Positions 16,555 through 64,000 of a stretch of 64,000 nt of DNA are shown one piece after another. The stretch comes from Gekko japonicus (Eukaryota). How positions within the stretch are numbered: the first letter of the stretch is position 1; each line of letters starts with the position of its first letter. The DNA is taken from NCBI RefSeq assembly GCF_001447785.1, contig NW_015163118.1, positions 1 to 64,000 of the forward strand, given 5' to 3'. The translations under genes and the position numbers were made by a program. The notes beneath the pieces are model-generated. The model saw only the letters and a program-made list of their open reading frames with translations. It was not told where the DNA came from and searched no databases.

Positions 16555-16827
16555 TTACTCAACAACACGCCGGAAGGACTGGACCACTGGAGATGTGGCC
16601 CCCCACTCGACAGGCTTACTGTACTCTCCTCTCTCCAGAAGGTACTGCCGGCCGCGGAAGTTGGGATGTTCGTAGAAGATCCAGGCTCCCTCCAGGACTT
16701 TGCAGGAATGGATTTCCCGGAAATGAAACTGATCCATGACAGAAGGGCAGTCATCCATGTATTCATGCATCTGGCCACTAAACTCACCCTTCTCAAAGAG
16801 CTGGATCTGGTGTTTGCCTCCGCTGGG
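16555..16827 (-). CDS. CRYGS: CRYGS exon 3 (C-terminal domain)
   Basis: ttgttccag|CCC AGC GGA ... GAG TAA; AATAAA on the minus strand at 16506-16501. Confidence 0.97.
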
Positions 16828-19800
16828 CTGGAACAAGGAAAGAGAGCACCGGGGGTCACTGAGGAGCTGAGCAGAGGCATGCATTTGCAACACACAGTTC
16901 AGACTCTTCGGCTTCAGTCTGCATCGTGTTGAAACGTGGATGCGAAGCATGAAAGCAACGAAGGCACCAGGGTTGTGGATGCATCTCCAAAGGCCACTAA
17001 GCACCCATGAATACACCTAAAGCCTTTTCAGTGTGGGTGTTTAGAGTATTCTTCTAGCTCCACTGGCCTTCGTCGCCTCATGATACACCAGAAACACCTG
17101 TTCTATTATTGATTGTGCAAGAGTGATGGTCGTATATGCCCCATACCTTCACCAGCATCTCAGGCTCATAGGCCCCTTGTCATACCCACCAGCTCATGCA
17201 CTATGGCCCACCAGAGCTTGGTAAATCTTCTGGTTCTTCTCCTCCAAGCAAAAGACCCTGTCTGGGATGCTGTGTTCTCCAGCATCACCCTGGCCACACA
17301 ACATCTGGAGGTTTATCAAGCCCTGGCAGGCTGCTGTACATGGCTGCTGGGGAGCATGTTAGCCAAAGCTGTGAGCCGAGCGGCTTTGTTGAAGTGAGTC
17401 CCCAGCACCACTTTAAAGTACACCAGCACAGCATGCTTTGGAGAATAAGAGCTCATGTTATTGAATGGATTCTGGCCGTGCTTTGCAATATCTCTTATAA
17501 AGGAGGGGAAGGAAGATGGCTCCTCAACAGGAGCCTGAACATGAAGCACGCCATGGTATCTGCTCAGTCGGAGCCACAAGCACGACAGACTCCCCCAGGA
17601 GAACCAAAGAAAAGATTTAAACAACTTGCTTGTTTCCAAGAGGCCTTTGGCTGCAGAGCAGCAAAGCCCCACAAAAGCCTGTGATACGGGGACAGGGGCT
17701 GTCACTGGCTGCAGTAGCATTTCACCAAAGCAGTTCACATCAGATGAACTGGCCTCAAGCCAGTGGCAGTTTATATGACAGTGAATGGGTTAGTCTTTAA
17801 GGGTCTTGTTTTGTTTGTGCTGCCATAAACTGACATGGCAATTCCTTCTCCCACCCCCCGCCTCCCAGCTGCCAGTTATTCCTATCAGATCTCAACCCTC
17901 TAAAGTGCCTAATCAAGACCTTTTGCCATGGATTGTCCAAACATGGTTGGGTTGGGTGTGCAAGGGATATAGCCGGGTGCTGAAATGCCATTGCCCCCCT
18001 CCCCGATGAGCTTCCCCCAAGAAGTGTGAGTCCTCCCAGTGGAGCAGCAACATCTGAGTGGCTATTAATTGGGTGCAGGTTCCTAATGCACAGATGTAAG
18101 AAACTTAAATGAGAATACTACCCATTATACCTCCTTACTCAACATATAGGGTTGCCAGCTCCAGGTTGGGAAAGAGCTGGAGATGTTCTGGGTGGAGGCA
18201 GTGAGGTCTGGGGAGGGGGTGGACCTCGGCAGGGTATAGAGTCCACCCTCCAAAGCAGCCATTTTCTCCAGGGGAACTGATCTTGGTCATCTGGCGGTCA
18301 ATTGTAATAGCAGGAGATCTCCAGGTGCCACCTGGAGGATGGCAACCCTACTCAACAGATAGTGCTTAGTACATGACCTTGGGGTGAAAGACATGAGGGG
18401 GTTAAAGGCATTGTGTGTAGAGGGAGGCAATCATTACCAGTACTCAACAAACATGCGTCCTGCAGCAACTTCAAGACAAACACGTTTTTATTCTACCAAT
18501 TAGCGGACTCTAATCCACAAAAGCTTATGCTAGAAGGAAGGTTATTTGTCTTCAAGGGACTGCAGGACACTTGTTTATTTTTGCTGCAACAGACTATTGT
18601 GACTAACCCTCTGGAAGTGTGAATCTGTGCTATGAGAACAGAAGTATGTATGTGTGAGTTATTCCTGGTAAATTAACACGAAATAACATTCTGGGGTCTT
18701 CTGCATGCACCAAGAAAGAAAATCGGCCAATGTATCCTGCTATTCAGACTTTGCATCATCTTGATAACAAATGTCCCAGGCCTTGTGAAAGGGGCCTGAG
18801 GAGCTGTGGCGCACTGGGAGAGCATTAGCTTTGCATGCAGAAGGTTCCTGGTTCAATTCTTGCCATCTCCAGACATCAGAATCAAGGAGAAAGTAACATG
18901 AAAGACATGGAGAGCCACCGCCAGTCACTGTAGGCGATACTGACTTTCAGAGGCCAGTGGTCTGACTCGGTATAAGGGAGCTTCGTTCACTCAACATCAG
19001 AAGAGAAAGAAATGGCAGACTTACCAACTGAATGTATTTGCATGAGCTGATGCGGTCATTAAGGCCCATCCAGCGTTGGTATTCAGGATAGTCCCCATGG
19101 GTCAGCACATACATGTTCCCTGCAAAGTTTGGTCGCTCATATATAACCCAGGCACCTCCTTCCACACGGATGGAATTGCAACGGCTCAGGTCATTGTGGA
19201 AATCCGAGCTGTCCCTGTCACACTCGTAGCGGCGCCCTTGGAAATTCTTCCCTTCGTAGAAGGTGATCTGAAACACAAGCAAAGCGTGAGAGACAGCAAT
19301 GCGGTTTCTGCTAGACACAGTGCAGCTTGGCTGAGCTAAATGCATTCTTTTCTTGCACTAGAGTGCGACAACATCCCACGCTTGCAAACACATTACACTG
19401 AAGATACATCAAGATGGGTAGCCGTGTTCGTCTGTCTGTAGCAGTAGAGAGTAAGAGTCCAGTTTCACCTCAAAGACTAACTAAGTATGTGGTAGAGTAT
19501 GAACTTTCGTGAGTCACTGCTCAGTTCTTCAGATACCTGAAGAAGTGATCAGGTGACTCACCAAAGCTCATACTCTACCACAAATTTTATTAGCCTTTAA
19601 GGTGCTACTGGGCTCTTACTCTTTTCTACATCACAATGTGTTGAGACGCTGTGCTAAGACATTGCCCCAGCAGATGGACCCCCAGACATGCTTCTTAGGC
19701 AAAAATACCAACCACGGACTGTCCACATGAGTTTCAACAAGTACAGAGAGATATGGTAGGGTGGAAGTGACAACTCGCTATTGCAGAAAGGGATGGTGGT

Positions 19801-31656: not shown

Positions 31657-34600
31657 CTGAAATGCATCGAAATAGTGGCACTGAAGCATGTGGAATACAA
31701 TTACAAACATCTTCATACCATTTGAGTTCAATGTAGGGTTATCATTTGCCCAGTGGGGGCAAGGGATCCCCCGATTTTGTGGGCTTCTGCCCACTGCTAG
31801 CCAGCTGGCCGGCAGGAGGGAATCCCCCCCCCCCCAAACAGCAACATTGCACGCAACCTGCCTGCATCACCCAGAAGTGATGGCGGCATGTCACTGATGT
31901 CGGGGGTGACGCTCTGGCTTTCAGGCAAAACTCTATTGTTTGATGCCGATTTTACCACAGAGTTTTGCCCCAAATGCAGAGCATTGCCAACAAGACTTCC
32001 AACTGACACAGGCACGATGTGCAAGATGTCACTGTTTTGGGGAATGGGGGGGTTGAGATCACTCCCCACTCCCAAAACACCCCCCCATCTCCCCGCCGGC
32101 ATGCAAAAGGAACCTGGCACCCTAGTCCAATGCCTAATAGGGAACTTCTCATCCAGAGTGAATACAAGACCAAGCAATGAAAGTATTTGCTCACAAATAA
32201 ACATACTTCCACTTAGTGCATGCAGCTTTCATTAAATGTGAGACAATTACCAATTCTAATTTTTTTTACTCTTTTTATGTTTGAAACCCACAGCATGTCT
32301 TGGGCCAAACCGTCCAGGTACCTTACAATGATAACAAACCTAGCATATTTGTGAAGTGCCTAAGAACTAGACACTGTGAATAAAATATCAACTAAAAGAG
32401 ACAGGCCCTGCTTTCAAGCTTACAAGTATAAGAGAAAAACAGAAGGGGAAGGGCTTTATTTTAAAGTGAAACAGCTATAAGCCAATAAAAAAACAAGCAG
32501 TGAGTAGCCTTCCCAGATAAAAGAAATTCATTCATCATTCCCAAATGCCTCCAAACAAAAGAAAAAGGCTACTCTAAATTATACAACACAGCAAACCTGA
32601 CAAACTTCTGTGGGAAAGCCACTCCAAAGAAGTTTTGATAAAGAATCCAGAACAGGAAGCATGGGTATATACTCTAAGGAAAACTGAAATTCTCTCTCAT
32701 TCATAGAAACATCACCAAAAAGAACCCTCTCTATTCCTTTCCAGGTTGCTTCTACCACCAGAGGGTTGCTCAAAGACATAAGTATTTTCTAAAAGAAGTT
32801 CTATGGAGCCTTCAATTTTAGTTCCAACTGGAATCCTCCATATACAGGGCCAGAACAGTAGAAATATATCAGAAAAAAGCAGGGTTAGAAACTCCCTTCG
32901 CTTGCAGCTTTTTGAAATCAGTTATGTCCTCTACTCAAAAATACTCTTTTGCTCGCTTAACAAACCAGCGCTCTTATTGTTGGGTTAGGACTTCAGACTT
33001 TTTAAAAAGCCAAAGTTAAGCAACTGGTGAAAAATGGAACAGAACAGAGAAGTCAAGCATCTCTTTTGTTTATAAGAATTACAAAGAAGGTGACTTTCAG
33101 AAACTTAGTTCAGCTTCTTCTCAGTCCAAATTTACCTGTCAGAAAATAATAGTTAACTCCATATTCCAATTATTTAAAAGTGCCTGAGACGGGGGGGAAA
33201 TTGAAACTGGCTAGTTAGAACAAAGATCAAAAAGAGAAATACTTTGGATGGGATGGGATGGGATATGTGCATGTTACAAGTTTATACTGAACTTTTAAAA
33301 AAATACCACTATGGTTAGAAATACTGAAAAATAAATAAATAAATGTATCTGTAAATTATACTTTTGAGTTCATGATACCAAGTTCAGCTGATAAAGTTTC
33401 ACCGCTGCATCACCATTTATTGAATTTCTACTTATCCAGAAGCATTTATACACAGGAACCTTGTTATCAAAAGAGATCTAAATCCTGGCATGAAAATGTC
33501 AACCTTATCTAAAGGCATAATTACTTCACAGTGAAAAAGAAGCCTCTAACCCTCAATTTTACTTAACACATTGAGGCCTCTACTAATTGCTACTGGGAAT
33601 CAGAAGTTCTGCTATAGAACAGTAAGATTTTAGCCCCTTTATGACTTCCTCTCAACGATGCTACTTTTCATGGTATTAGCTTCCCCAGCATTCCACTAAA
33701 TTACCATAGCCTCCATAGAGAAAAATTGTAAGTAGCATGTCAGTCCATGGACTATTCCCCACATGATTTCACTGATTTTGATTCAAAATATGGACAAGAT
33801 AGGAAAGATATAATCAATCACAGTCAATCACAGTCTCAAACACAGCTGCATTGTGGACCCAAACTGCTTCTAGCAGCGAAATCTTCTCTCCTGAAAGAAG
33901 CTGGGACTTACTTGGTCAGCCCTGCCTCCTTCACAGTCTTTTGCCAGACCTGTATCCTCTGTTCTCGTTGGCTCAGTCCGTTCTGGTATGCAGGTGGCAG
34001 CCCACCAGGTATTTCTGTTGTGTCTCCTTCCATTTCAAATGGAACAACAAAGGGGTAAAACTCTGAGGGTGAGAGGAATCTGAAGACCTTCCAGTCACAG
34101 TTATCTTTGCACACCAACATTGGATTGTCCCAGTAGTTAGGCACCGTAGCCAAGCCAGTTCTGCCCATATGGTCCTCAAGCATTGGATAGTGGGTGTGGA
34201 AGGGAGCAAAAGTTATGGCTTGATTGCCTAGTAGGATGAGTGGTCTAGTTGGAGTGAGAATGTGCAAAGTACAACTGGTGGTGGATGACAGAGACAGACG
34301 GCGGCAGACAGCAATCACTTTGACATTGTCACAGCTGTGAAGATGAACGACTGTCTGCACTGGGCCTAGGACAAAGGTGCTGTTCCTGCACTTCTCTATG
34401 CTCACAGATCTAAAACAGAGGAAAGAATAACTGACTTGAGCAGGAGGAAATGTAACTCTGAAATACGTTCCAAAGGTGGATTAGAGAAGGTGAACTTACC
34501 TCAGTGGAGACAGCAAATAAATGAAGGATTCACAGCAGCGATGAATCTTCACATGGCTATCTTCTAAAGTATCTGAGCTCTTTGCCAGTGTTTGCTTGTA

Positions 34601-37600
34601 GACTTGGCTCATCACAACCATGCGGTGCGCTGAAGGGACCATGTGAGTATTGCAGGCTATCTTGGCTCTCTTGGTTGCTCCTTCAACTACAAGAATCAAG
34701 TAAAACATTACTTTTTAAAAAGTAGCTCTGATTAATCCAATATAACAAGGGCAACTACATATGTCTCAAAATCACAGCAACCTCAGAACAAATAGTCATA
34801 GACCTTTTATTGATTAAAAACTATCCAGAAGTTCAGTCAACTCATTCAAAGTCGACTTTTGGTTTATGGCGACACGCTGGCGGACGCATCTCCCGGATCT
34901 CCCGGGGATGTGATCTGCACACCAGCGGATAGGGGGGGGGGGCGACGGGTCACCACCACCCCCTGAGCCTTGGCAAAAGGCTCCTAGCCATGGGGCTTTT
35001 GAGGGGCGACCTCTTCACCAGCGCGATGCTGGGGAATTGAGGCGCTCCTCCGCCCCGACGGTCCTGCCGCTGAGTGTCCGTATGGAACTAGAGCCGCTGA
35101 CTGGGACAAGCGTTGGAGATCGAGCGGTTGCAACGTGCTCAGAGCGAGGTCGTATGACCAACAATGAACAATACTCAAAAATCTGTCCATTTCATTGCAC
35201 AAGAAATAAGACACATGTAGTCACCAGTGTTCCCTCTAAGCTGAGTTAGTGTGAGCTAGCTCACAGATTTTTAGCCTCCGGCTCACACATTTTTGTCTCA
35301 GCTCAGGAAGGCTGGCTCCAGAGCAAACTAATTTATGCAGCAGCCAAATCGCTGGCTCACAACTTTAATGATAGTAGCTCACAAAGTAGAATTTCTGCTC
35401 ACAAGACTCCACAGCTTAGAGGGTACATTGGTAGTCACTACAGACACCATGTGACTATCTGTCCTTAATTCCGAGACAAATATTTCTAACTAGCTATTTT
35501 ATAACCTTCTATCTGCTTTACACTCTGTCTCTAATGTTAGACAAAGCTTTAACATTCCCCATTTATGAAATGAGACCAGTACAAGGTTTACATTTTGTTA
35601 TGTATTTAGTGACAAGGAGCACAACAGAAAAACAAGGATTGGACAGTCTTGTTAACTTAGTGCAGCTAACATGGAATATATACTTAGTTCTATCAACCTG
35701 ACCTAAATTATTTTGGTAATACCAGAAGGAGATATGAGCACATAATATATAGTACGAATAAAACCATGTTCTAGTAGATGAAGCATGGGAGACCCTGGCT
35801 CAGCCTTTACCTACAGAACTGGGACCTGCCAATCTTTACAATAGAGTTATTCATTCAACTACAGAAATTAGGATATATGTTACAGGACTGGAATGCTCCA
35901 TAAATGAAAGATACTATTTTTGCTGCCCAAGTTGGTAGGAAAGCAAGTCATAAATATAGTTGATCTGACCACCAGCATCTGCTCCAAGATGCTATCTGAC
36001 AGAGCAGGAGGCCTCTGGGATTTTGTAAATAAGAAAAAAAGGAAGATATTGTGTTATGTGCCATTATTAAATGACCAGATATGAAGAAAATCTAACTGTA
36101 CCTTGCTGTGCCCATGCAAGCTTGTTCCCAGACTTGAGGCAGGCTGATGTTCCAAATGGATTCCCAGTCAGGCAAGTCCTCAGCCAGGACTCCAGCTTGG
36201 GGAAAGAGAAAGCTTTGGAGATCTTTGAGAAACCACTGCTTGCATGCAATGGCTGCCAGAGTGCAAGCTGATGCAGAGGATGGACAGTCCTGTTGTTGTT
36301 CACAGACCCTTCAATCAAAAAGCTGAGCGCTCGAACAGCTTCAGAAGTTACCAGGCTATTGTGGGTGGAATGAGAGGAGGCAGAGAGCTGGTCTGGATCT
36401 AGTAAGAGTTCTAGAAGATCCTGGAGGTGATTCTGGATGAAGGCTTGATGGTAGCTGTCATTCCAGTTCTTATACCAAACAAAGAGCAGGTTGTCAAATA
36501 CCAAACAAGTTTGCACAAAGCCAAGTGACAGTCAATTCCATCCCATTCTTGCAAATTTGCTGCCCACTGCAAATATTCACCCAGTATAAAAAGAACCAGA
36601 AAGTAGTAATTTATACTGCACTTCCTTAAGGTCAAAGTCACTGCTAGAGGGGCATACACTGCCACTTTACTCAGACAGTCTATCATCCTAAAGTACATTA
36701 ACAATTCGCACATGTATAAAAGGTACAGAATGGTGATGAAGAACAAAAGCATTTAATATCTGAGCTTCAAGGGAGAAGAAAGATCCATGGGGGGAAATCC
36801 AACAGAAGACAGAAAAGACTGGATGGCAATGCAAGGTTTTACTCCACAACCAACTCATCCCACTAAGATCATTCTTGTGGATTACTTTAAAATCTATGAA
36901 TACATAAAACGTACCCTCTCTTCTTAATTTAATTTGCATTGCTTTTTACAACTTTGTAACACCTTTTTGGTAGACACTCAACAACTAGTGTTAAAAAGGA
37001 ATAAATATTTTTATTGCAAGTAGAATATATTTGTTTAAAAAATGAATTCAGGTGAAGGCTTTTGTGGCTTTTTTTAGAATACAATGCAAGTTGGTGTTGA
37101 ATGGACTCTAAGAATTCACAACATATTTAAGAGTTATATTCAATATATGCCAAGTTCTTGTCTTCAAACAAAAGCATGGAAGCTGCTTCTAAAGAAAAAT
37201 AACCTTTCAAGAAAATCAATCCAAAATACCTTAATCTGATTGGTGGATTCTCCAGTCAGGCCATAAGACTTGGATTTAAGATTTGGCCATTCTTCTCCAA
37301 CTAGAGATGTCCTTAGGGAAACTTTGTTTAGTTGCTGTATATACAGGAAAAGCAGGAATTGCAGAGTGTCCACAGATAACTAAATGAAAACACCAGGAAA
37401 AGTTTAAAACTTAAAAACAGAACATTACTTTTAAGAACGACATTATTTAGCAGAGATGGACCATTTTATGTTCAGTAGAAGATCAGTATAGGGGAGCAAA
37501 GGAGACACAGACAGACCATTACTTTTAGAAACTAGAGACAATTTCAATGGATAGACACTCCCACTTCATGCTAGATTATCATCCACATGTACCTGGAGTG

Positions 37601-38102
37601 TACTTTGTATCAGCAAGATACAAGATCAGCAAGATCAGCAGCAAGATAAGGAAATACGCTACTGTTTTCTACGCTGTGTGCATGAAGCACAAAGACCAAA
37701 GACATTGCTAGGAAGAACATAATCCAGGTCCCATTACATTAAAAATTACAAGATGACGTTCCATGCCTTGTTCCGTTGCTTCTCTGCTTCCTCCTCAGTT
37801 GCACAGCTCAGCATCACCTCAGCCCATTCCAGTCGCTCCTCTGCAGTCCGTTCAACAAGACTGTCAAACAGCTCAAAATAGAGCCAAGCCAGGTCCTTCT
37901 CTAACTGCAGCTTCCCACAGGCAATGTGTCGCCACATAGGCCAGAAAAGGTAAGGATAATAGCCCTCACTAGAATGCATCCGGACATAAGTGGACATCTT
38001 TCGTAGATAATGCAGACTCAACTTGGATGGAGGTGGGATTTGCAAAGCTCCCACTATGAAAGGTTCCATCTTCACCCACAGATTAACTGTAAATTGATCC
38101 AT
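31527..38102 (-). CDS. TBCCD1: TBCC domain-containing protein 1, spliced CDS join(38102..37767,37379..37230,36468..36102,34686..34500,34409..33912,31656..31527), 555 aa (559 aa if the upstream ATG at 38114 is used)
   Basis: Exons of 336+150+367+187+498+130 = 1668 nt with consistent phases. The protein MDQFTVNLWVKMEPFIVGALQ...KIHRCCESFIYLLSPLRSVSIEKCRNS...AGPKQAAG* is colinear with vertebrate TBCCD1 and lies between CRYGS and DNAJB11 as in human. Confidence 0.95.
31734..32124. mobile_element. hAT-type MITE in a TBCCD1 intron
   Basis: TAGGGT...ACCCTA termini; 8-bp TSD GTTCAATG / GTCCAATG. Confidence 0.75.
33912..34409 (-). CDS. TBCCD1: TBCCD1 coding exon 5 (TBCC/CARP domain)
   Basis: ttttag|A TCT GTG ... 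ACC AA|gtaagt. Confidence 0.95.
34500..34686 (-). CDS. TBCCD1: TBCCD1 coding exon 4
   Basis: cttgtag|TT GAA ... CTG AG|gtaagt; VEGATKRAKIACN...LLSPLR. Confidence 0.95.
34831..35160 (-). mobile_element. Unclassified CpG-rich retroposon-like insertion
   Basis: Sharp GC/CpG-rich block in an AT-rich intron; minus-strand 3' end GTCGCCATAAACCAAAAGTCGACTT resembles RTE/Vingi-type tails. Confidence 0.45.
35225..35430. mobile_element. Complete hAT MITE
   Basis: TIRs CAGTGTTCCCTCTAAGCTG / CAGCTTAGAGGGTACATTG; perfect 8-bp TSD GTAGTCAC. Confidence 0.9.
36102..36468 (-). CDS. TBCCD1: TBCCD1 coding exon 3
   Basis: ggtataag|AAC TGG AAT ... CAA G|gtacag; NWNDSYHQAF...LAWAQQ. Confidence 0.92.
37230..37379 (-). 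CDS. TBCCD1: TBCCD1 coding exon 2
   Basis: catttag|TTA TCT GTG ... ATT AAG|gtattt; LSVDTLQFLLFLYIQQLNK. Confidence 0.95.
37767..38102 (-). CDS. TBCCD1: TBCCD1 first coding exon (exon starts at 38138)
   Basis: Acceptor ttttctag| before 38138; MDQ...EKQRNK; donor AAG|GCATGG (GC type). Confidence 0.9.
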
Positions 38103-38159
38103 TTTAGCCATCATAAGAATCTCACATCTATGCTTTCCCTAGAAAACGAAAACAAAAAT

Positions 38160-41010
38160 TTGTATTCCACCTTTCCAGCCTTCCAAGTCCACCAAGGCAA
38201 CTTAATAACTTAAAACAAACATGATAAAAATTACATTTTAAAGCCATTAAAATCAAACGCCCCCCCAACACATGTCATTAAAACAATTAAAAACATAGTT
38301 AGAATATATACAAAACAGCAATTGAAACATTGGTTAGGAAGGATGATCATAGAGGGAATCCCAAACGAAACAAAAAATGTCTTCAACTGCTGGCCGAAAT
38401 TGGGAGCCACTATAGGTGGGCCAAGGCTGGAGTGATATGGTCCCTATGACTTACTCAACATCCTGGCTGAAGCATTCTGTAACCAATTGAAGTTTCTAAA
38501 CAGTTCTCAAGGGCAGCCCCATGTAGAGCACATTGCAGTAATTTAGGGTTCCCAAGTACCTACCTACGAACTGGCGGGGGACACATGCTTCCCTGCCAGA
38601 AGATTCTTGCTTGTAACATAGGCGCTGCACTATTCCATCACCCAGACATGACGTAGGCATGTAGCTAGGCGACGCTCTGGTAATGGGACTGGAAACTCGA
38701 TGGTACCATCGAGTTTTGAACCCCATTGCTAGAGCGTCACCCGGCTACATGCCTACGTCACGTCTGGGCGACGGAATAGTGCAGCGCCTGTGTTTTTCCC
38801 GCAGGAATGGTCCCGCGAAGAACTATACATCCCCCGCCAAATTAAGGTAAGTACTTGGGAGCCCTGCAGTAATCTAATCTAGATGTAGCCAGGGCATGCA
38901 GCACAGTGGCCAGGTCTTTTCTGCCCAGGAAAGGCTGCAGTTGGCTAAACAGTCAAAGTTGGTAAAAGGCACTCTTGGCCACAGCTGCCACCTGCTTATC
39001 CAGCAGTAGGTTGGGCCTGTTCTTTCAAGGGGAGTGCAACCCCATCCAGAACAGGTAACACCTTAAATCCCAGTCAGACCTTCCAACCATTAGGAGTAAT
39101 CCCTTGTTGGGATTAAGCTTCAGTTTATTGCCCTGCATCCACTCCAAAACTGCCTCCAGGCACCAGTTCAGTGTTTCCACAGCCTCCCTGGGATCAGCTA
39201 TAAGTGAGAGATAAAGCTGAATGTCATCCAACTTTGGTGACAGTCCAGTCCAAATCTCCAGATGACCGCACCCAGACGTTTCATGTAGATGTTAAAGAGC
39301 ACAGGGGACAAGATTTATTTGCTTTTTTGATTTATATACCACACTCCCCGTGAGTGGGCTCAGGGCGGTTTACATCAATCTTAGTATAATACCATTAAAA
39401 CAACCATCAAATAATGAATTAAAACAGCAAAAAATAATAAAAATACCATGTAAAACAGTTTGGTCAGATGTCAGTCAGATTAATTTGAGTACAACAGTGG
39501 GTGCCCCAATTTCAGTTTAGATCCAGGCCACTGGTGGGATATTGGCCAGGAGGGACGTCCACCGCCTCAACCAAAAGCCCAGTGGAAGAGCTCCATCTTG
39601 CAGGCCCTGCGGAACTGCAAAAGCACCTGCGGGGCCCTGATCTCATATGGGAGCTCATTCCACCAGGTGGGGGCCAGGGTCGAAAAAGCCTTGGCCCTGG
39701 TTGAGGCTAGTTGGATGTCCCTGGGGCTGGGGACTGCCAGAAGGTGTTGATATGTAGACCTCAGTGCCCTTTGAGTCTCATACAGATAGAACCTTGCGGG
39801 ACTCCATAGCCGAGAGGCTGAGCAGCAGTCCCCCAGAACCACCTTCTAAAACCTATCCTCCAGGAAGGATCAGAACCACCACAGAAAGGTGCCTCTCACT
39901 CCCAGCCCAGATGGGCAGTCCATGATCAATGGTATCATAAGCCATTGAGAGGTCCAGTAGAATCAACAGAGTCACACTCCCTCTGTCCCTCTTTAAGTGC
40001 AGGTCAAGCACTAAGGCAACCAAGGCTGTTTCAATCCCATAACCAGGCCTAAACCCAGGCTGGAAGAGATCTAAACTATTTGCCTCATCCAGGACAGCTT
40101 GGGGTTGATCAGCCACTGCCAATTTGATCACCTTGCTCAAGAATGGAATATTTGAGACTGGTTGATAACTACATTGAGATCTCCTGGGTTAATGGTACTC
40201 TTCTTTACAAGCAGACGCACCATAGCCTGTTTCAAGGCTGGGATGACCACCCTGTCTCTTAAGGAACAACTTCTTGAACCAGTCAGTCAGTCAGCCACAC
40301 ACACACACCCCGATTTATGTGACCAGGAAGGGTGAGGGTCATACAAGCAGGTGGTAGCCTCAAATTTCCAAGGATCCTGTCTGTTTCCTCAGAATGAAAA
40401 GTATCCCAAAGAATTGGACAAGTCGGCACCCTGGCACCATCTGACCCTGTCACTGCTAACAGAGAATCCAAGTCAAAACAGATTCAAGAGATTTTATCTG
40501 TTAAATGCTGGGCAAAACAGTCACAGAGGGCCACTGAGCAGTCCACCTTCTCTGGCAGGCCAGATCGCAACAGGCCTCTGATCGTCCAGAAGAGCTCTGC
40601 TGACTTACACTGTGCAGACACAATGGTGGTGGGGAAGTGTTATTTCTGTGCCATCACTGCCACACGGTGCACTTTAAAACAAGGTGTTGCCTGTGTCTTA
40701 TCAGATTCATCCCAAGTCTTCCTCCACTGTCGCTCTAACATCTCTCTCATCTTTTCATCAGCTGCAGGTCCTCAGTAAACCAAGGGGTATCTAGGCTCTA
40801 ACACTTGAGAGAGGGTGCCCAGGAGTGACTGCGTCAACTGCCCAGGCCATTCCCTCATTCTAGAGATCAACCAAGGCATTGAGACACCCCAACCATATCA
40901 ACAGGAAAATCCCGTACAGCCATCAGAAAGCCATTCAGATCTATCTGGCTCCAGGAGCAGATCATCTGAACTGGTCCCCCACCCTTGCAGCGTCTTGGTA
41001 TCCTTGTTGT
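38160..41010 (-). mobile_element. Decayed L2-type LINE with nested insertions (TBCCD1 intron 1)
   Basis: RT fragments FQPGFRPGYGIETAL...LLDLSMAYDTIDH, DDIQLYL...WMQGNKLKLNP and LNYCNVLYMGLP; interrupted by a MITE (38544-38866) and a younger L2 3' end (about 39314-39820). Confidence 0.8.
38544..38866. mobile_element. Palindromic hAT-type MITE
   Basis: TIRs TAGGGTTCCCAAGTAC / GTACTTGGGAGCCCTG; 8-bp TSD CAGTAATT / CAGTAATC; central perfect palindrome AAACTCGATGGTACCATCGAGTTT. Confidence 0.88.
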
Positions 41011-41429
41011 AAGTCTAATTCACATATAAAATACAGCGTAAAAAGCAGAAGTACAGAAATGGAAGGTCCCTTAGAATTGATGGTCATGCTGGTGGTCATA
41101 TTGGGCCTGTGGCCCTCCAGCTTCCTTGCACTACTATAAGTTCTGCTCACCCACTACATGCTATTCTGTCTCTTTTGACAATTTTCATATGACAAGTGCT
41201 GGAGAAATCTAGTATTCAGACCAGACTCCTAGAATTAGGCGGAATGCTATTGCAAAGTGGGGTGAAAAGCTTCCTTAATCAACAGGTAATTGGAGTACAA
41301 ATTAAATTTGGCAGAAGGGAAAGGGAGATACCACTTTTGGGGACTTTGTTTTTAAGAGGACTAAAGGAATGGATTCTCCCATCAAGGAAGATAAGACCTT
41401 ATGAGACTGTACCTTTTAAAAACAAAAAA

Positions 41430-42055
41430 GGGTCTCGCAGCACTTTAAGGACTAACAGATTTATTATGACACCAAGTCTGTGAACCAGAATCTGTCAGGC
41501 CCTTGAAACATTATCTTCAATTAGCAGACACTGAAGAAAAAATTATAAACAATGAAGTCAAAGGCCATGACATGCAGGAGGCATTTTTATTCTAGCATAA
41601 GGTTTCATGAACTAGAGCTGACCTCATGAATCCACAAAAGATTATGCTAGAATAAAAGCCTTCATCTTTAAAGTACCACAAGGTTCCTACTATGTTTGCT
41701 GCAACAGACTATCAGGGCTGCTTCTTAGAACTATCAGTGTGTTATATTCATACAAAACCCAAAAGCATATACACAAGTGAAGCAGAAGACTCTTTACAGC
41801 AGCAGTCCTTAGAAGCCTGTAAGAGTGCATATGCTGCGTTCTGCCTGTTCTCCATGAAAGTCTGCCTCTGTTTATAAATTCAGGTGGGGCAGCCGCGTTG
41901 GTCTGAAGCAGCAGAACGAAGTCTGAGTCCAGTGGCCCCTTTAAGACCAACAAAGTCTTATTCAAGGTATAAGCTTTCAGATCTGAAGCTTATATCTTGG
42001 GGGAGGGGGGGAACTGTTGAACTTAAAGGGGCCACTGGACTAAAACTTTGCTCTG
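41430..42055. mobile_element. Cluster of Penelope-like fold-back remnants
   Basis: Inverted repeats TTTTATTCTAGCATAA / TTATGCTAGAATAAAA and AGTCCAGTGGCCCCTTTAAG / CTTAAAGGGGCCACTGGACT; related to the 19413 element and to 18485-18620. Confidence 0.5.
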
Positions 42056-42720
42056 TTTATAAATGTGAGGGCGGGGCCAGCGGGGGCAAAAAACAAAACT
42101 GTTTGGCGCCAGCTTGAGGCATTCGACTCTATGTGAGAGGCGGAGTTCGCCAGCCCTACCACGGCGTCCCTATCAGGAGCACAGCCACCTGTGGACCCCA
42201 GGTCTGTGTCCCTCAGCAACAGTCCCCGCATCCCTGTTCCCGACTGGAAGAAGCCAAGATTAAGCGGAGTCACTTTGAGAAGAGGAAAAAAGAGCATCTT
42301 TCTGCATGTCCCTCCCGTTACCTGCGCGCCTCAGTCGGCGCCTCTCTGCAGACAAGCGGCTTTCGAACGTCCACGCCCTCCACTCCACCGCGCCTGCGCA
42401 CAAACGCAAGTCGGGCTCACGATTCTACAGCACATAAACCATGTTTATCTACCAAAGACCTACTCGCCTAGACCGACGCTTTTTGAACCACGAGGAAGGC
42501 ACCCGACAGTCCTCTTCTGTCAAACCTTTTTCGGTCTCTATGGTTTTTCTTGGGGAAATCACCATCGAGGGTACGCCGCGGTAGCGCCCCGTCCGGTGTG
42601 GAGGACTCTCTCAATGGAACTGCATGGGCGTAATGATCTTGTAAAATTTAGTGAAGAGAATCAAGCTTCATTTCCTGAAATATCGACTTCCTCTCGCGCG
42701 CAAGGAAAAAGAGACAGTTG
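42050..42720 (-). promoter_or_regulatory. TBCCD1 CpG-island promoter and non-coding exon 1 (donor at 42321)
   Basis: CpG-rich stretch; minus-strand donor GCAG|GTAACG at 42322/42321; NRF1-like GCGCCTGCGCA at 42390-42400. Confidence 0.7.
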
Positions 42721-44850: not shown

Positions 44851-57849
<12,999 letters not shown>

Positions 57850-60391: not shown

Positions 60392-61496
60392 AGAGACCTT
60401 GACTGCTTGAGCAGGTATCAAAGGTTCTCTAGAGAGGATGTGGTAGGTTTCATTCCCAGTCCCTTTAGAAATTTAAAATGCATTGAGGTTAGATCCTAAG
60501 CAACATTCTGTTAGTGGGGCAATTAGTTCTGCTGCTGTCCTCCTCCAACTGCAGATGCCACCTGCCCACACACAGGGCGCTCTGTGGACTTCAAAAGGAA
60601 TGGGGGGGGAGGCATACTTCCAAGGCTTCACTGTGGCAGTGGTAGTTGGGAATAACTCATTGAGGTGGATCCTTAGCCTTACAATTCGTAGTTAGGCTCA
60701 AGATGTTCAGATAAGGAAAGAACCATGTTGTGCTCCCTAGTAAAAATTCCCCTTGAAGGAGAGGGGCTCAATAATGACATCTATGAAAGAAACACTGTAG
60801 CTTTCCATTTAATCAAAACAGGCCCCCTGCTGCTCCTAATCCAACTTTTATGAGTCCCTCCTGCTTGCCCGAAGTTCCTGAGATGTTGAGTTACCTTTGT
60901 TAAAATTTGTGACTTTATCATAGTGAAGGGGATATATAATGGTCTCCGTCTCTCACAGATCTGCTGAGGTGTCCTCTGTTACACCTTTTCTTTGCACATC
61001 ACTTGGAGATGATAGTGTGGTGCCCATCTCTGGATCAAGGAACCCTATGTTTCCCCAATTGTTTTAAAAATATGAATCAAAGCCGCCTCACTGCATGTTG
61101 CTGAAATGAAATAAGTGTTAAATGCTAACAGTAATAACTCCCACTGCCAGAATGGATTTTTTTAAAAAAACATTAGGAGGGGGAACACTGAAGAAGTCCC
61201 AGCAATTTGAGAACCATGAAGAAGTCCATGAATTATTAATTTTTATACAGTGCTTTGTGGCTTCTGCCCACTGTTGGTCATGGCATGCAAAGGCAAGAGT
61301 GCAGAGCCTTCTTCCAGGTAGTATATAGAAAGGTCCCTACGATGATGGTTGCCTTGCTGCTGTGCTCAAACTCACAGGAGGTGTGGGATTTTATGAACAT
61401 GGGTCTGTTTCTTCATGAAAGGATTAAACACAGATAGCAGAGTTTTGCAGCATTCCCTTCAGTTGAGTTTGGCTCATAATGTTACGGTGCTTGATG

Positions 61497-61609
61497 TTAT
61501 CTTTTCCCGCCTGTGCACAGGAAGATGCAAACAGCTAGGCCCAGTAGAGCAAAGGCACCCACAATGATGCCCAGCACCAGTGGGGTGTGTGAGCGACCGT
61601 GACGCTCTC
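61497..61609 (-). CDS. PROCR: PROCR-like last exon (transmembrane helix and short tail)
   Basis: cttgccttacag|GA GAG CGT ... AAA AGA TAA: GERHGRSHTPLVLGIIVGAFALLGLAVCIFLCTGGKR*. Closely resembles the recalled human EPCR end SRSYTSLVLGVLVGSFIIAGVAVGIFLCTGGRRC. No alpha-3 Ig exon intervenes, which points to EPCR rather than CD1. Confidence 0.88.
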
Positions 61610-62508
61610 CTGTAAGGCAAGAAGAAAAAATGTGATGAGAGCCTTTCTGCATGTTTGTGGGTGGCAGCTGTACTCACAAGTGACTTATTGTCAGAGTCAT
61701 AAATAGGATCGTAACTCATAGGATAGCATTGTGAAAAGGCTGAGGCCTTTTGGATCCAAGACAGGAGCTGTTTCTGTTTGACTTAGCAACCTGACAAGTG
61801 TTGCATTTTTAGGCCTGCTTGTAAAACAAGGCTTGTGAGCAGTGGTGCATGAAGCAGCTTCCCATGCAACAGGACCAATTTTAACCACCTCCCTTAACAG
61901 GAAATAATCTGATGAGGATCTCGCATGGTGGAGAATACTAAAAGTAACTATCTGAGCCTGTGCAACCATGTATTTTCTGCACAAAAGATAAAATACTGTA
62001 TCAAAAAACCCCACAAAAACTGGATTCTTTAGCAAAGTCATATTTGCATATATTCAGTATTATTTTGCTTAGTGCTGCTGCTAGTAAGCAGAGGAAGGGA
62101 AAGGTAGGTCTTTGGAAAGCCTATTCAGTTCCTCCATACTACATACTGGAATTACCAAGCATTCCACACCCTTGGTTTCATCATGAACTTTCGGTCATAT
62201 TTTTACAGCCTTAGAAGCTGGGTGCTTATTTTTTGTTTTAAGAATGAAAGGTGGGATTTTCACCTGCACCCATTTCTACTTTTCTGTTCTTGTGTGGTGA
62301 TTTTGTGGAGTTGCATGGAATTTACTGAGCGAGATCATGGAACTGCATGGAAATATGTACATCTCTGTTTGTTGGAGTTCATGGTTAGGAACCTTTTGGT
62401 TTTGGCTCAAGTAATGCATTGTTTGGCTATACTGTGGATAACTAAGCAGCATCCCAGCTATTATGCGAAGATTTTGCTTCCCAGATGTATAAAAGTAGTC
62501 ATACACAC

Positions 62509-62781
62509 CAGTCAAGGGTTGGTTTACATCGCTGTGCTCCTTCACAAACTTAACACATGTTTCTTGTAGGAAAAACTGCAGGGTTTTTGTGGTCTCGTTG
62601 TAGTAGTTCAGCTGGCCAGTGGCATACGAGGCCATGTGGGAGGCCTTCAAAGGCAACCATGTAGCGTTGGCAGCGTAGAATTTCAGGAAAGGACGCCCAT
62701 TCAGTGCCACCTCGTAGAAGCTGTGACTGGTGCTGTTGTGGAAGATCAGGCAGCCCTGAATGCAGTGTACATGAAAGGGAT
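62509..62781 (-). CDS. PROCR: Endothelial protein C receptor-like (PROCR/EPCR) alpha-2 domain exon; gene is 5'-partial, upstream exons not found in the window
   Basis: ttgttgtag|AT CCC TTT ... ACT G|gtgtgt, 273 nt, phase 1-1: xPFHVHCIQGCLIFHNSTSHSFYEVALNGRPFLKFYAANATWLPLKASHMASYATGQLNYYNETTKTLQFFLQETCVKFVKEHSDVNQPLT. Matches the EPCR/CD1 alpha-2 pattern (GC...FYEVAxNG..F..F...W...QLNxYNxT...FLxxTC). Confidence 0.85.
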
Positions 62782-64000
62782 CTACAACAAAGTAGGAGTG
62801 TTAGGAATATACTTCTCAGGTACAGCCTATTTTCACATATTAGTTCCCCGCACCCTTTACATCTCTAGTTAAAGCTGCACTCAGCTCTTGAGAGGAGACT
62901 TTAGGTTCATATGCTAAGCTAAGCAGGAGTTATTTAGATAACAAATTAGAACAATAAAGACTGAAATTCATAGTTTGGCTCAAAGGCACAACCATGAATG
63001 AATGTATACATTCATTAATGTGTACTGCTTGGTTTTAATTTCATCATAGGTCAAGTAGCACAGACAATGGATTTATAGTTTAGTAGTTAAGCATGTTTTA
63101 AATCAGAAGGTCCCAGGTTCAGCTTTTCGGAAATAGGGCCACCTGCCCCACCTGGAGAATTATGGAGGATTAAGGCTTTACATTTGTGGTATCACCTTCC
63201 ATTTATATATTTACAGCTTGCTTTAGGATGCAAACATTGGTTTCTTTGCTGAGAGGTGATACTCTTTTTTAAAAATCCCCCTTTATAAACATGACAGTAT
63301 TCTTGGAGGGTGACTTAGAGGAAGGTGTTCCTTATTAGAAAGCTTCTTAATGGCTTTTATTTTAGTACTTGATGCTAATTATTCATAGACATTGAAACGC
63401 ATGTAGAGAGTTTAGGTGGCTACAAGGGTAGTGAAATTTTTCGTTTCCCTGAAGCCCTATTGGGAAGTAGGGCAGCCCTGCATCTAGCATTTCCAGTTAA
63501 AAGGATTTCCCCAAGTCTCAGAGAGGCCTTTTTCTGCCTTCATCTTTGGAGAAATGCTGCTTATCAGAATAGCCAAGAGTGGACTAAATAATAGATCTAT
63601 ATAGTATATCAACTATAAAGTTACAGGTAGCCACACTGATCTAAAATAAGATCCAAATAATTAATACCGTTTATTAAGACTAACCAAAATGACAGAAAAC
63701 ATATACAAGTTTTCACTTTTTCCAGAATGCTTCATCAAGCTTGGTGTTTAAAAGGGGGAGGTTGGAATAGTTTGTCATGATCTCAAGGCCTGGTCCTGCT
63801 AGCATCCTGGTCTTGCTAGCACTGACCAGCTATGTAGCTATGAAGTGGTGGTGGTCACTCTGGCCTTTGGAGAAGAAGCAGAAGAACATGTAAGAATGAC
63901 TGTGGGCTTAGTCTTTCCCACTGCTGTTGATGTGGACAGAAAATGCTCATGGGAGAAGAATGATAAGTTGTGAATTTAAAAAAAACTGAGGGGAGGTCAG

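What the first reader, a model, noticed from the sequence alone, without database searches (positions are those of the whole stretch)
61497..62781. EPCR/PROCR-like MHC class I-family receptor tail-to-tail with DNAJB11, in the position human gives to AHSG
Seen: two phase-compatible minus-strand exons, an alpha-2 domain followed directly by a transmembrane/tail exon ending CIFLCTGGKR*, with no alpha-3 Ig exon. The ORF track shows only a fragment of this. Established: the alpha1-alpha2-TM layout is that of EPCR; human PROCR is at 20q11, and human DNAJB11 at 3q27 is followed by the AHSG/FETUB/HRG/KNG1 cluster. Inference: this is a sauropsid, possibly ancestral, location of PROCR and marks a synteny breakpoint just downstream of DNAJB11, which bears on how the CD1/PROCR lineage moved out of MHC-paralogous regions. 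The linkage may already be annotated in bird or reptile genomes.
Basis: partly seen in the sequence, partly recalled or inferred. Interest (0 to 1): 0.7.

Follow-up and report, generated by a model that had tools for sequence, protein, structure and literature searches.

The report
Ordinary gecko protein C receptor gene

Summary
Observation confirmed. The two minus-strand exons (62781-62509, 61609-61497) are exons 3 and 4 of a four-exon PROCR/EPCR gene. Signal and alpha-1 exons lie beyond the window (contig 77351-77291, 72411-72160). The spliced product equals a 232-aa protein that NCBI already names endothelial protein C receptor of Gekko japonicus. RNA shows the 62509-61609 splice in 3 of 4 runs. 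Best structure and tree matches are EPCR, not CD1. No alpha-3 exon exists. The order CRYGS-TBCCD1-DNAJB11-PROCR-PFKL-CFAP410 equals that listed for chicken chromosome 9. A 2016 review already says ProCR neighbours are shared by chicken and anole but not human, with no obvious tie to MHC-paralogous regions. So the identification and the reptile/bird location are right but known; 'ancestral' is untested for want of an outgroup; the MHC-paralogon link is unsupported. Small additions: PROCR sits at the seam of blocks that are on human 3q27 and 21q22.3 (human order recalled), and a dead copy of its alpha-2 exon lies in a DNAJB11 intron. The scan found the same arrangement before in another lizard genome (e1-9922381).

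The parts
62509..62781 (-). PROCR exon 3, alpha-2 domain (residues 105-196), phase 1 at both ends
   Evidence: both splice junctions seen in RNA
61497..61609 (-). PROCR exon 4, stalk, transmembrane helix and short tail ending FLCTGGKR, with stop codon
   Evidence: helix 204-228 in the model; splice seen in RNA
61610..62508 (-). PROCR intron 3, 899 nt, GT..AG, no alpha-3 exon
62782..64000 (-). 3' end of PROCR intron 2; exon 2 (alpha-1, contig C3408 72411-72160) and exon 1 (signal peptide, 77351-77291) lie beyond the window
46151..57849 (+). DNAJB11 from the J-domain exon to the stop codon (its first coding exon, further upstream, was not delineated); tail to tail with PROCR
49568..49886 (-). 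Degenerate copy of the PROCR alpha-2 exon with its acceptor site, inside a DNAJB11 intron; frameshifted, stop after 15 codons in the PROCR frame
   Evidence: 212 of 303 aligned bases identical, score 208.5 against a maximum of 78.5 in 300 control stretches
16558..19267 (-). Beta/gamma-crystallin exons, read as CRYGS from position (gene name recalled and by analogy with the chicken list)
33914..42700 (-). Exons read as TBCCD1 (name recalled and by analogy with the chicken list; the one exon scanned had no Pfam match; ends approximate)

Best explanation
The two exons are the alpha-2 and transmembrane/tail exons of the gecko's single, intact, expressed PROCR gene, whose product likely works as the endothelial protein C receptor. 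Shown: a four-exon gene encodes a 232-aa protein with signal peptide, alpha-1/alpha-2 platform, one membrane helix and a short tail, spliced in RNA and orthologous to mammalian EPCR. Inferred from the human receptor: the platform would hold a phospholipid in its groove and dock the calcium-loaded Gla domain of protein C (and factor VII) through Glu100, Arg101, Gln161 and Tyr165, presenting protein C for activation; lacking alpha-3 it would not need beta-2-microglobulin. Its place between DNAJB11 and PFKL is the reptile/bird arrangement, already annotated in chicken.
For: Spliced exons equal P0001 letter for letter; NCBI names it endothelial protein C receptor. Whole protein against PDB: EPCR 9e-34, best CD1 9.3e-12. 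Model pLDDT 80.7; Foldseek ranks 1-12 are EPCR chains, rmsd 1.7-1.8, E 1.2e-17 to 1e-15; the first CD1 listed is rank 17 at 1e-11. Tree of 33 alpha1-alpha2 sequences: all 19 PROCR rows on one side of a branch (93/95), all 12 CD1 rows on another (95/95), the window protein among geckos (100/99). Of 10 residues named in passages of bioRxiv 10.64898/2025.12.18.695140, 5 are identical (Q75, E86, R87, Q150, Y154), 3 conservative (L82V, V83I, F146Y). Exon 3-4 splice in 3 of 4 runs and exon 2-3 splice in 3 of 4 runs. One intact match each for the alpha-1 and alpha-2 exons in the genome (these searches score only the best candidates). Chicken chromosome 9 list CRYGS, TBCCD1, DNAJB11, PROCR, PFKL, CFAP410 (PMC13560938).
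Against: Two of the 10 residues differ non-conservatively: human R156 is Glu and R158 is Thr; R156 is Arg in 7 of 7 mammals and 0 of 13 sauropsids of alignment A1, R158 in 7 of 7 and 1 of 13. The terminal Cys of most mammalian and bird tails is absent. RNA depth is low (156, 42 and 136 reads laid) and intron 3 is covered about as deeply as the exons in X20 and X22. The PROCR branch has bootstrap 93, under the 95 mark. No binding or tissue data exist here; function is carried over from mammals.
Confidence: 0.9

Rival explanations
1. A true PROCR orthologue whose main job in reptiles and birds differs from the mammalian one, for example lipid presentation to T cells or a changed ligand preference, because the surface beside the lipid head group has changed.
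For: R156, which contacts the lipid phosphate and moves to admit the Gla loop in human EPCR, is Glu or Gln in 13 of 13 sauropsids aligned; L82, V83, Q150 and Y154 also vary among sauropsids.
Against: E86 is kept in 20 of 20 and R87 is Arg in 18 of 20 (Lys in 2) rows, and the gecko keeps Q75, Q150 and Y154; the fold is superposable on EPCR.
Confidence: 0.08
2. A CD1 or other MHC class I-like gene that lost its alpha-3 exon independently and only resembles EPCR in layout.
For: It hits CD1 chains significantly and shares Pfam MHC_I_3 with them.
Against: EPCR scores over 20 orders of magnitude better than CD1; the tree separates it from 12 of 12 CD1 rows and follows species relationships; the FLCTGG end is shared with mammalian EPCR.
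Confidence: 0.01
3. The DNAJB11-PROCR neighbourhood is an assembly join or a gecko-specific move rather than a conserved arrangement.
For: The assembly is fragmented (191,500 contigs) and has an N stretch between the two genes.
Against: Chicken has the same six-gene order; a decayed copy of the PROCR exon lies inside DNAJB11, tying the two loci; a review reports shared chicken-anole neighbours.
Confidence: 0.01

Closest known systems
Endothelial protein C receptor of Gekko japonicus (NCBI predicted protein, P0001)
   Same: Identical 232-aa sequence; listed longest contig 668,772 nt, the length of contig C3408.
   Different: Nothing; this is the annotated gene.
Chicken PROCR, chromosome 9 (PMC13560938 table; gg_PROCR header in supplement 3 of PMC4509613)
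   Same: Order CRYGS-TBCCD1-DNAJB11-PROCR-PFKL-CFAP410; minus strand in the supplement header.
   Different: Chicken gene spans about 2 kb, gecko about 16 kb; after CFAP410 chicken lists TRA2B, IGF2BP2, SENP2 while the gecko has TRPM2, an LRR gene, an EPTP gene and a ubiquitin-conjugating enzyme (read as LRRC3, TSPEAR, UBE2G2); bird tails end GGSC.
Human EPCR (PDB 1l8j, 1lqv, 9tjx)
   Same: Alpha-1/alpha-2 platform without alpha-3, 36% identity, rmsd 1.8; Cys111/115/180 match C97/C101/C169; Q75, E86, R87, Q150, Y154 kept.
   Different: R156 to Glu, R158 to Thr, no terminal Cys; human gene is on chromosome 20, between EDEM2 and MMP24 (recalled).
CD1 family (sister lineage)
   Same: Same platform fold and Pfam family; sister clade in the tree as stated in PMC5002281.
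   Different: CD1 has an alpha-3 Ig domain and binds beta-2-microglobulin (established knowledge); this gene has neither exon nor domain.

Membership tests
PROCR/EPCR | MHC-I-like alpha-1/alpha-2 platform whose best sequence and structure matches are EPCR | tested here: met
PROCR/EPCR | No alpha-3 domain; four exons (signal, alpha-1, alpha-2, transmembrane/tail) | tested here: met
PROCR/EPCR | Groups with mammalian PROCR apart from CD1 in a tree | tested here: met
   19 of 19 PROCR rows on one branch side, support 93/95
PROCR/EPCR | Direct Gla-domain contacts E86, R87, Q150, Y154 conserved | tested here: met
   4 of 4 identical; accessory R156 and R158 are not kept, as in other sauropsid orthologues
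PROCR/EPCR | Single membrane helix followed by FLCTGG and a tail of a few residues | tested here: met
   terminal Cys absent, as in the other squamate, turtle and crocodile rows
PROCR/EPCR | Spliced and expressed | tested here: met
PROCR/EPCR | Binds protein C/factor VII Gla domain and a groove phospholipid; endothelial surface expression | not testable with these tools
   needs binding assays and tissue data
CD1 | Alpha-3 Ig (C1-set) exon between alpha-2 and the membrane exon | tested here: not met
CD1 | Tree placement inside the CD1 clade | tested here: not met
   12 of 12 CD1 rows form a separate branch side, 95/95
Classical MHC class I | Alpha-3 domain and close similarity to peptide-binding class I chains | tested here: not met
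   (chicken class I at E 0.026)

The most novel reading that the evidence does not exclude
DNAJB11-PROCR-PFKL is the original amniote site of PROCR. In the gecko the gene sits exactly at the seam between a block that human keeps on 3q27 (CRYGS-TBCCD1-DNAJB11) and a block that human keeps on 21q22.3 (PFKL-CFAP410-TRPM2-LRRC3-TSPEAR-UBE2G2), and its human flanks EDEM2 and MMP24 are not neighbours in the gecko. PROCR would thus mark a break in both genomes and would have been carried to the human 20q11 site during rearrangements on the mammalian stem, which also gained Arg156/Arg158 on the ligand-binding helix.
Probability: 0.6. Interest if true: 0.25.

Novelty: already known. Interest (0 to 1): 0.12.

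Why it matters
Little as it stands: the gene is annotated and the chicken/lizard-versus-human difference in neighbours is in print. If the ancestral reading held, it would fix where PROCR sat in the first amniotes and add one well-resolved mammalian breakpoint (3q27/21q22.3/20q11), useful to people tracing CD1/PROCR origins or karyotype evolution; it would not place PROCR in an MHC-paralogous region. The Arg156/Arg158 difference is a ready test of how the receptor's ligand surface changed between reptiles and mammals.

Tried and rejected
Alpha-3 exon in intron 3: none. Second PROCR elsewhere: none with the alpha-1 or alpha-2 exon as query; Pfam MHC_I_3 found only this locus and no CD1 gene, so these genome searches are insensitive and give lower bounds. 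PROCR remnant at the human-like site: a profile of alignment A1 found nothing at E<1 in 190 kb around the EDEM2-like gene or 190 kb around the MMP24-like gene (610-616 kb of C4477 not included). Copies of exons 1, 2 or 4 near the dead alpha-2 copy: none. TRA2B, IGF2BP2 or SENP2 next to CFAP410 as in chicken: motifs not found in the first 244 kb, no SENP match on C3408 among 14 listed. SENP5 beside AHSG in the gecko: not seen in the 26 kb before the contig ends. An amphibian or fish PROCR to polarise the move: none among the named rows or the 20 of 150 representatives looked up; the rest stayed unnamed. Extended DNAJB11 gene models as clues to neighbours in platypus, frog and fish: uninformative, only the sheep model is fused to AHSG. 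One search listed no indexed holder on record as RNA; the raw-read runs it added were laid instead. Expression of the dead exon copy was not tested. A complex with the Gla domain was not predicted: a textbook pair needing modified residues. Dijkstra et al. (doi 10.1007/s00251-017-1050-2) is not held; it or its supplements may treat PROCR synteny. Searches for a paper describing the 3q27/21q22.3 seam at PROCR found only the chicken gene lists and the review sentence; subscription papers are not searched.

Full report
Observation. The minus strand carries a 273-nt exon at 62781-62509 and a 113-nt exon at 61609-61497 with canonical splice sites, both junctions phase 1, the second ending CIFLCTGGKR*. 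The first matches Pfam MHC_I_3 at 1.8e-11 and human EPCR at 2.7e-12, ahead of the best CD1 at 1.3e-6. The 899-nt intron holds no Ig-like frame. DNAJB11 is on the plus strand and stops at 57849, so the genes are tail to tail, 3,647 nt apart stop to stop.

The whole gene. The window is the start of contig C3408. Beyond it lie the alpha-1 exon (72411-72160) and the signal exon (77351-77291). The four exons splice to 232 residues identical to P0001, which NCBI names endothelial protein C receptor of Gekko japonicus. On window 60500-64000, 3 of 4 runs show the joint that removes the 899-nt intron (X20 2 reads, X21 2 reads, X11 one contig, X22 none), and loose ends at 62781 in X21 (6 reads), X22 (5 reads) and X11 equal the end of the alpha-1 exon. 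Depth is low and intron 3 is also covered.

Family. The full protein scores 9e-34 against EPCR and 9.3e-12 against the best CD1. The model (pLDDT 80.7) has an eight-strand sheet, two long helices and a membrane helix, and its 12 best Foldseek matches are EPCR chains. In a tree of 33 alpha1-alpha2 sequences that I chose (19 PROCR, 12 CD1, 2 class I; all other hits left out), PROCR rows form one side of a branch (93/95), CD1 rows another (95/95), and the window protein sits among geckos, then squamates, then sauropsids.

How it likely works. Passages of bioRxiv 10.64898/2025.12.18.695140 name ten EPCR residues at or under the Gla-domain interface. Mapped through, five are identical in the gecko (Q75, E86, R87, Q150, Y154), three conservative (L82V, V83I, F146Y) and two not (R156E, R158T). 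In alignment A1 E86 is kept in 20 of 20 rows; R156 is Arg in 7 of 7 mammals and 0 of 13 sauropsids. I infer a lipid-holding platform that docks protein C and factor VII in a calcium-dependent way and promotes protein C activation, as in mammals; this step is carried over, not shown. The terminal Cys, recalled as a palmitoylation site, is missing as in other squamates and turtles.

Neighbourhood. On C3408 the order is a crystallin gene, TBCCD1, DNAJB11, PROCR, liver-type phosphofructokinase, an LRR gene read as CFAP410, TRPM2, then genes read as LRRC3, TSPEAR and UBE2G2. Names not confirmed by a named hit (CRYGS, TBCCD1, CFAP410, LRRC3, TSPEAR, UBE2G2, EDEM2, TRPC4AP, MMP24, IPO9, LZTR1, FAM83C, AHSG, FETUB, HRG, KNG1) rest on a Pfam family where one was found plus my recall of the paralogue. 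The fetuin cluster is elsewhere: an AHSG-like and a FETUB-like gene on C7976, FETUB-, HRG- and kininogen-like exons on C16869. A sheep gene model fusing DNAJB11 to AHSG confirms the mammalian adjacency. The human flanks of PROCR (recalled: EDEM2 and MMP24) lie inside different gecko contigs: EDEM2-TRPC4AP on C15648, and IPO9-LZTR1-MMP24-EIF6-FAM83C on C4477, with no PROCR trace near either. From recalled human order, gecko PROCR therefore lies at the seam of a 3q27 block and a 21q22.3 block.

What is in print. PMC13560938 (passages) lists chicken chromosome 9 as CRYGS, TBCCD1, DNAJB11, PROCR, PFKL, CFAP410, TRA2B, IGF2BP2, SENP2. PMC12193209 (passages) lists DNAJB11, PFKL, TSPEAR, UBE2G2, SUMO3 and PTTG1IP around one chicken chromosome 9 locus. 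PMC5002281 (passages) says ProCR is on human 20, chicken 7 and anole 3, absent from Xenopus and zebrafish, with neighbours shared by chicken and anole but not human and no obvious relation to MHC-paralogous regions; its 'chromosome 7' disagrees, which give 9. PMC4509613 (passages and supplement headers) gives PROCR across amniotes: chicken and zebra finch 9, turkey 11, anole 3, opossum 1, human 20. PMC9907073 (passages and section 10) finds AHSG flanked by SENP5 and FETUB in lizards, snakes, turtles and birds but not mammals or shark. PMC12562908 (passages) cites Dijkstra et al. for an old CD1/PROCR lineage; that paper is not held and I saw nothing of it. I found no paper stating the 3q27/21q22.3 seam at PROCR, within a library that lacks most subscription papers.

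Direction of the move. Gecko and chicken agree, and mammals differ; with no outgroup carrying PROCR the polarity is open. I lean to the reptile/bird site as older (0.6) because PROCR, PFKL and CFAP410 are all absent from the human 3q27 site while the human 20q11 flanks are not joined in the gecko, and because a 3/21 association is recalled as an old mammalian feature. This is inference.

An extra feature. A decayed copy of the alpha-2 exon with its acceptor lies on the minus strand at 49886-49568, in the DNAJB11 intron between exons 48501-48596 and 50502-50633: 212 of 303 aligned bases identical, score 208.5 against at most 78.5 in 300 control stretches; it is frameshifted and has stops in all three frames. 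It reads as an old local duplication, and it ties PROCR to DNAJB11 physically.

Verdict. Real, correctly identified, already annotated and already noted in print. Novelty: already known. Interest 0.12.

Noticed in passing
window 49568-49886 (-): Decayed copy of the PROCR alpha-2 exon with its acceptor inside a DNAJB11 intron, 70% identical, frameshifted; no copies of the other three exons nearby.
   Followed up: yes
window 62279-62508 (-) and 61610-62508: The alpha-2 frame stays open for 76 more codons into intron 3 and intron 3 has RNA depth like the exons in two runs; retention would give a form without membrane anchor. Could equally be unspliced RNA.
   Followed up: no
P0001 residues 167 and 169 (exon 62781-62509): Human R156 is Glu or Gln in 13 of 13 sauropsids and Arg in 7 of 7 mammals aligned; R158 is Arg in 1 of 13 and 7 of 7.
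   Followed up: partly
G000:C3408 143-358 kb (L010-L012, L030-L037, L084-L093, L109-L110): After CFAP410 the gecko has TRPM2, LRRC3, TSPEAR, UBE2G2 (human 21q22.3 order, recalled), whereas chicken lists TRA2B, IGF2BP2, SENP2; suggests a bird-side rearrangement at this point.
   Followed up: partly
G000:C4477 460-650 kb (L066-L073, L094-L103): Genes read as IPO9 and LZTR1 lie directly upstream of MMP24-EIF6-FAM83C; in human these are recalled on three different chromosomes.
   Followed up: partly
G000:C12863 63-164 kb: A SENP-family gene lies head to head with another phosphofructokinase gene, recalling human SENP1-PFKM; chicken has SENP2 about 50 kb from PFKL, a possible old paralogous pairing.
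   Followed up: no
G000:C7976 13-54 kb and C16869 0.6-14 kb: At least two FETUB-like genes in this gecko, one after the AHSG-like gene and one before the HRG-like gene.
   Followed up: no
P0023 and P0258: Cobra PROCR and DNAJB11 models carry locus tags 15 numbers apart with the same longest-contig length, a weak hint of linkage in snakes.
   Followed up: no
L003 (contig 67238-70275): PROCR intron 2 holds LINE-like and BED-finger transposon remnants, which help explain a 16-kb gene against about 2 kb in chicken.
   Followed up: no
PMC5002281 passage: The review gives chicken ProCR as chromosome 7; two other sources give chromosome 9.
   Followed up: yes
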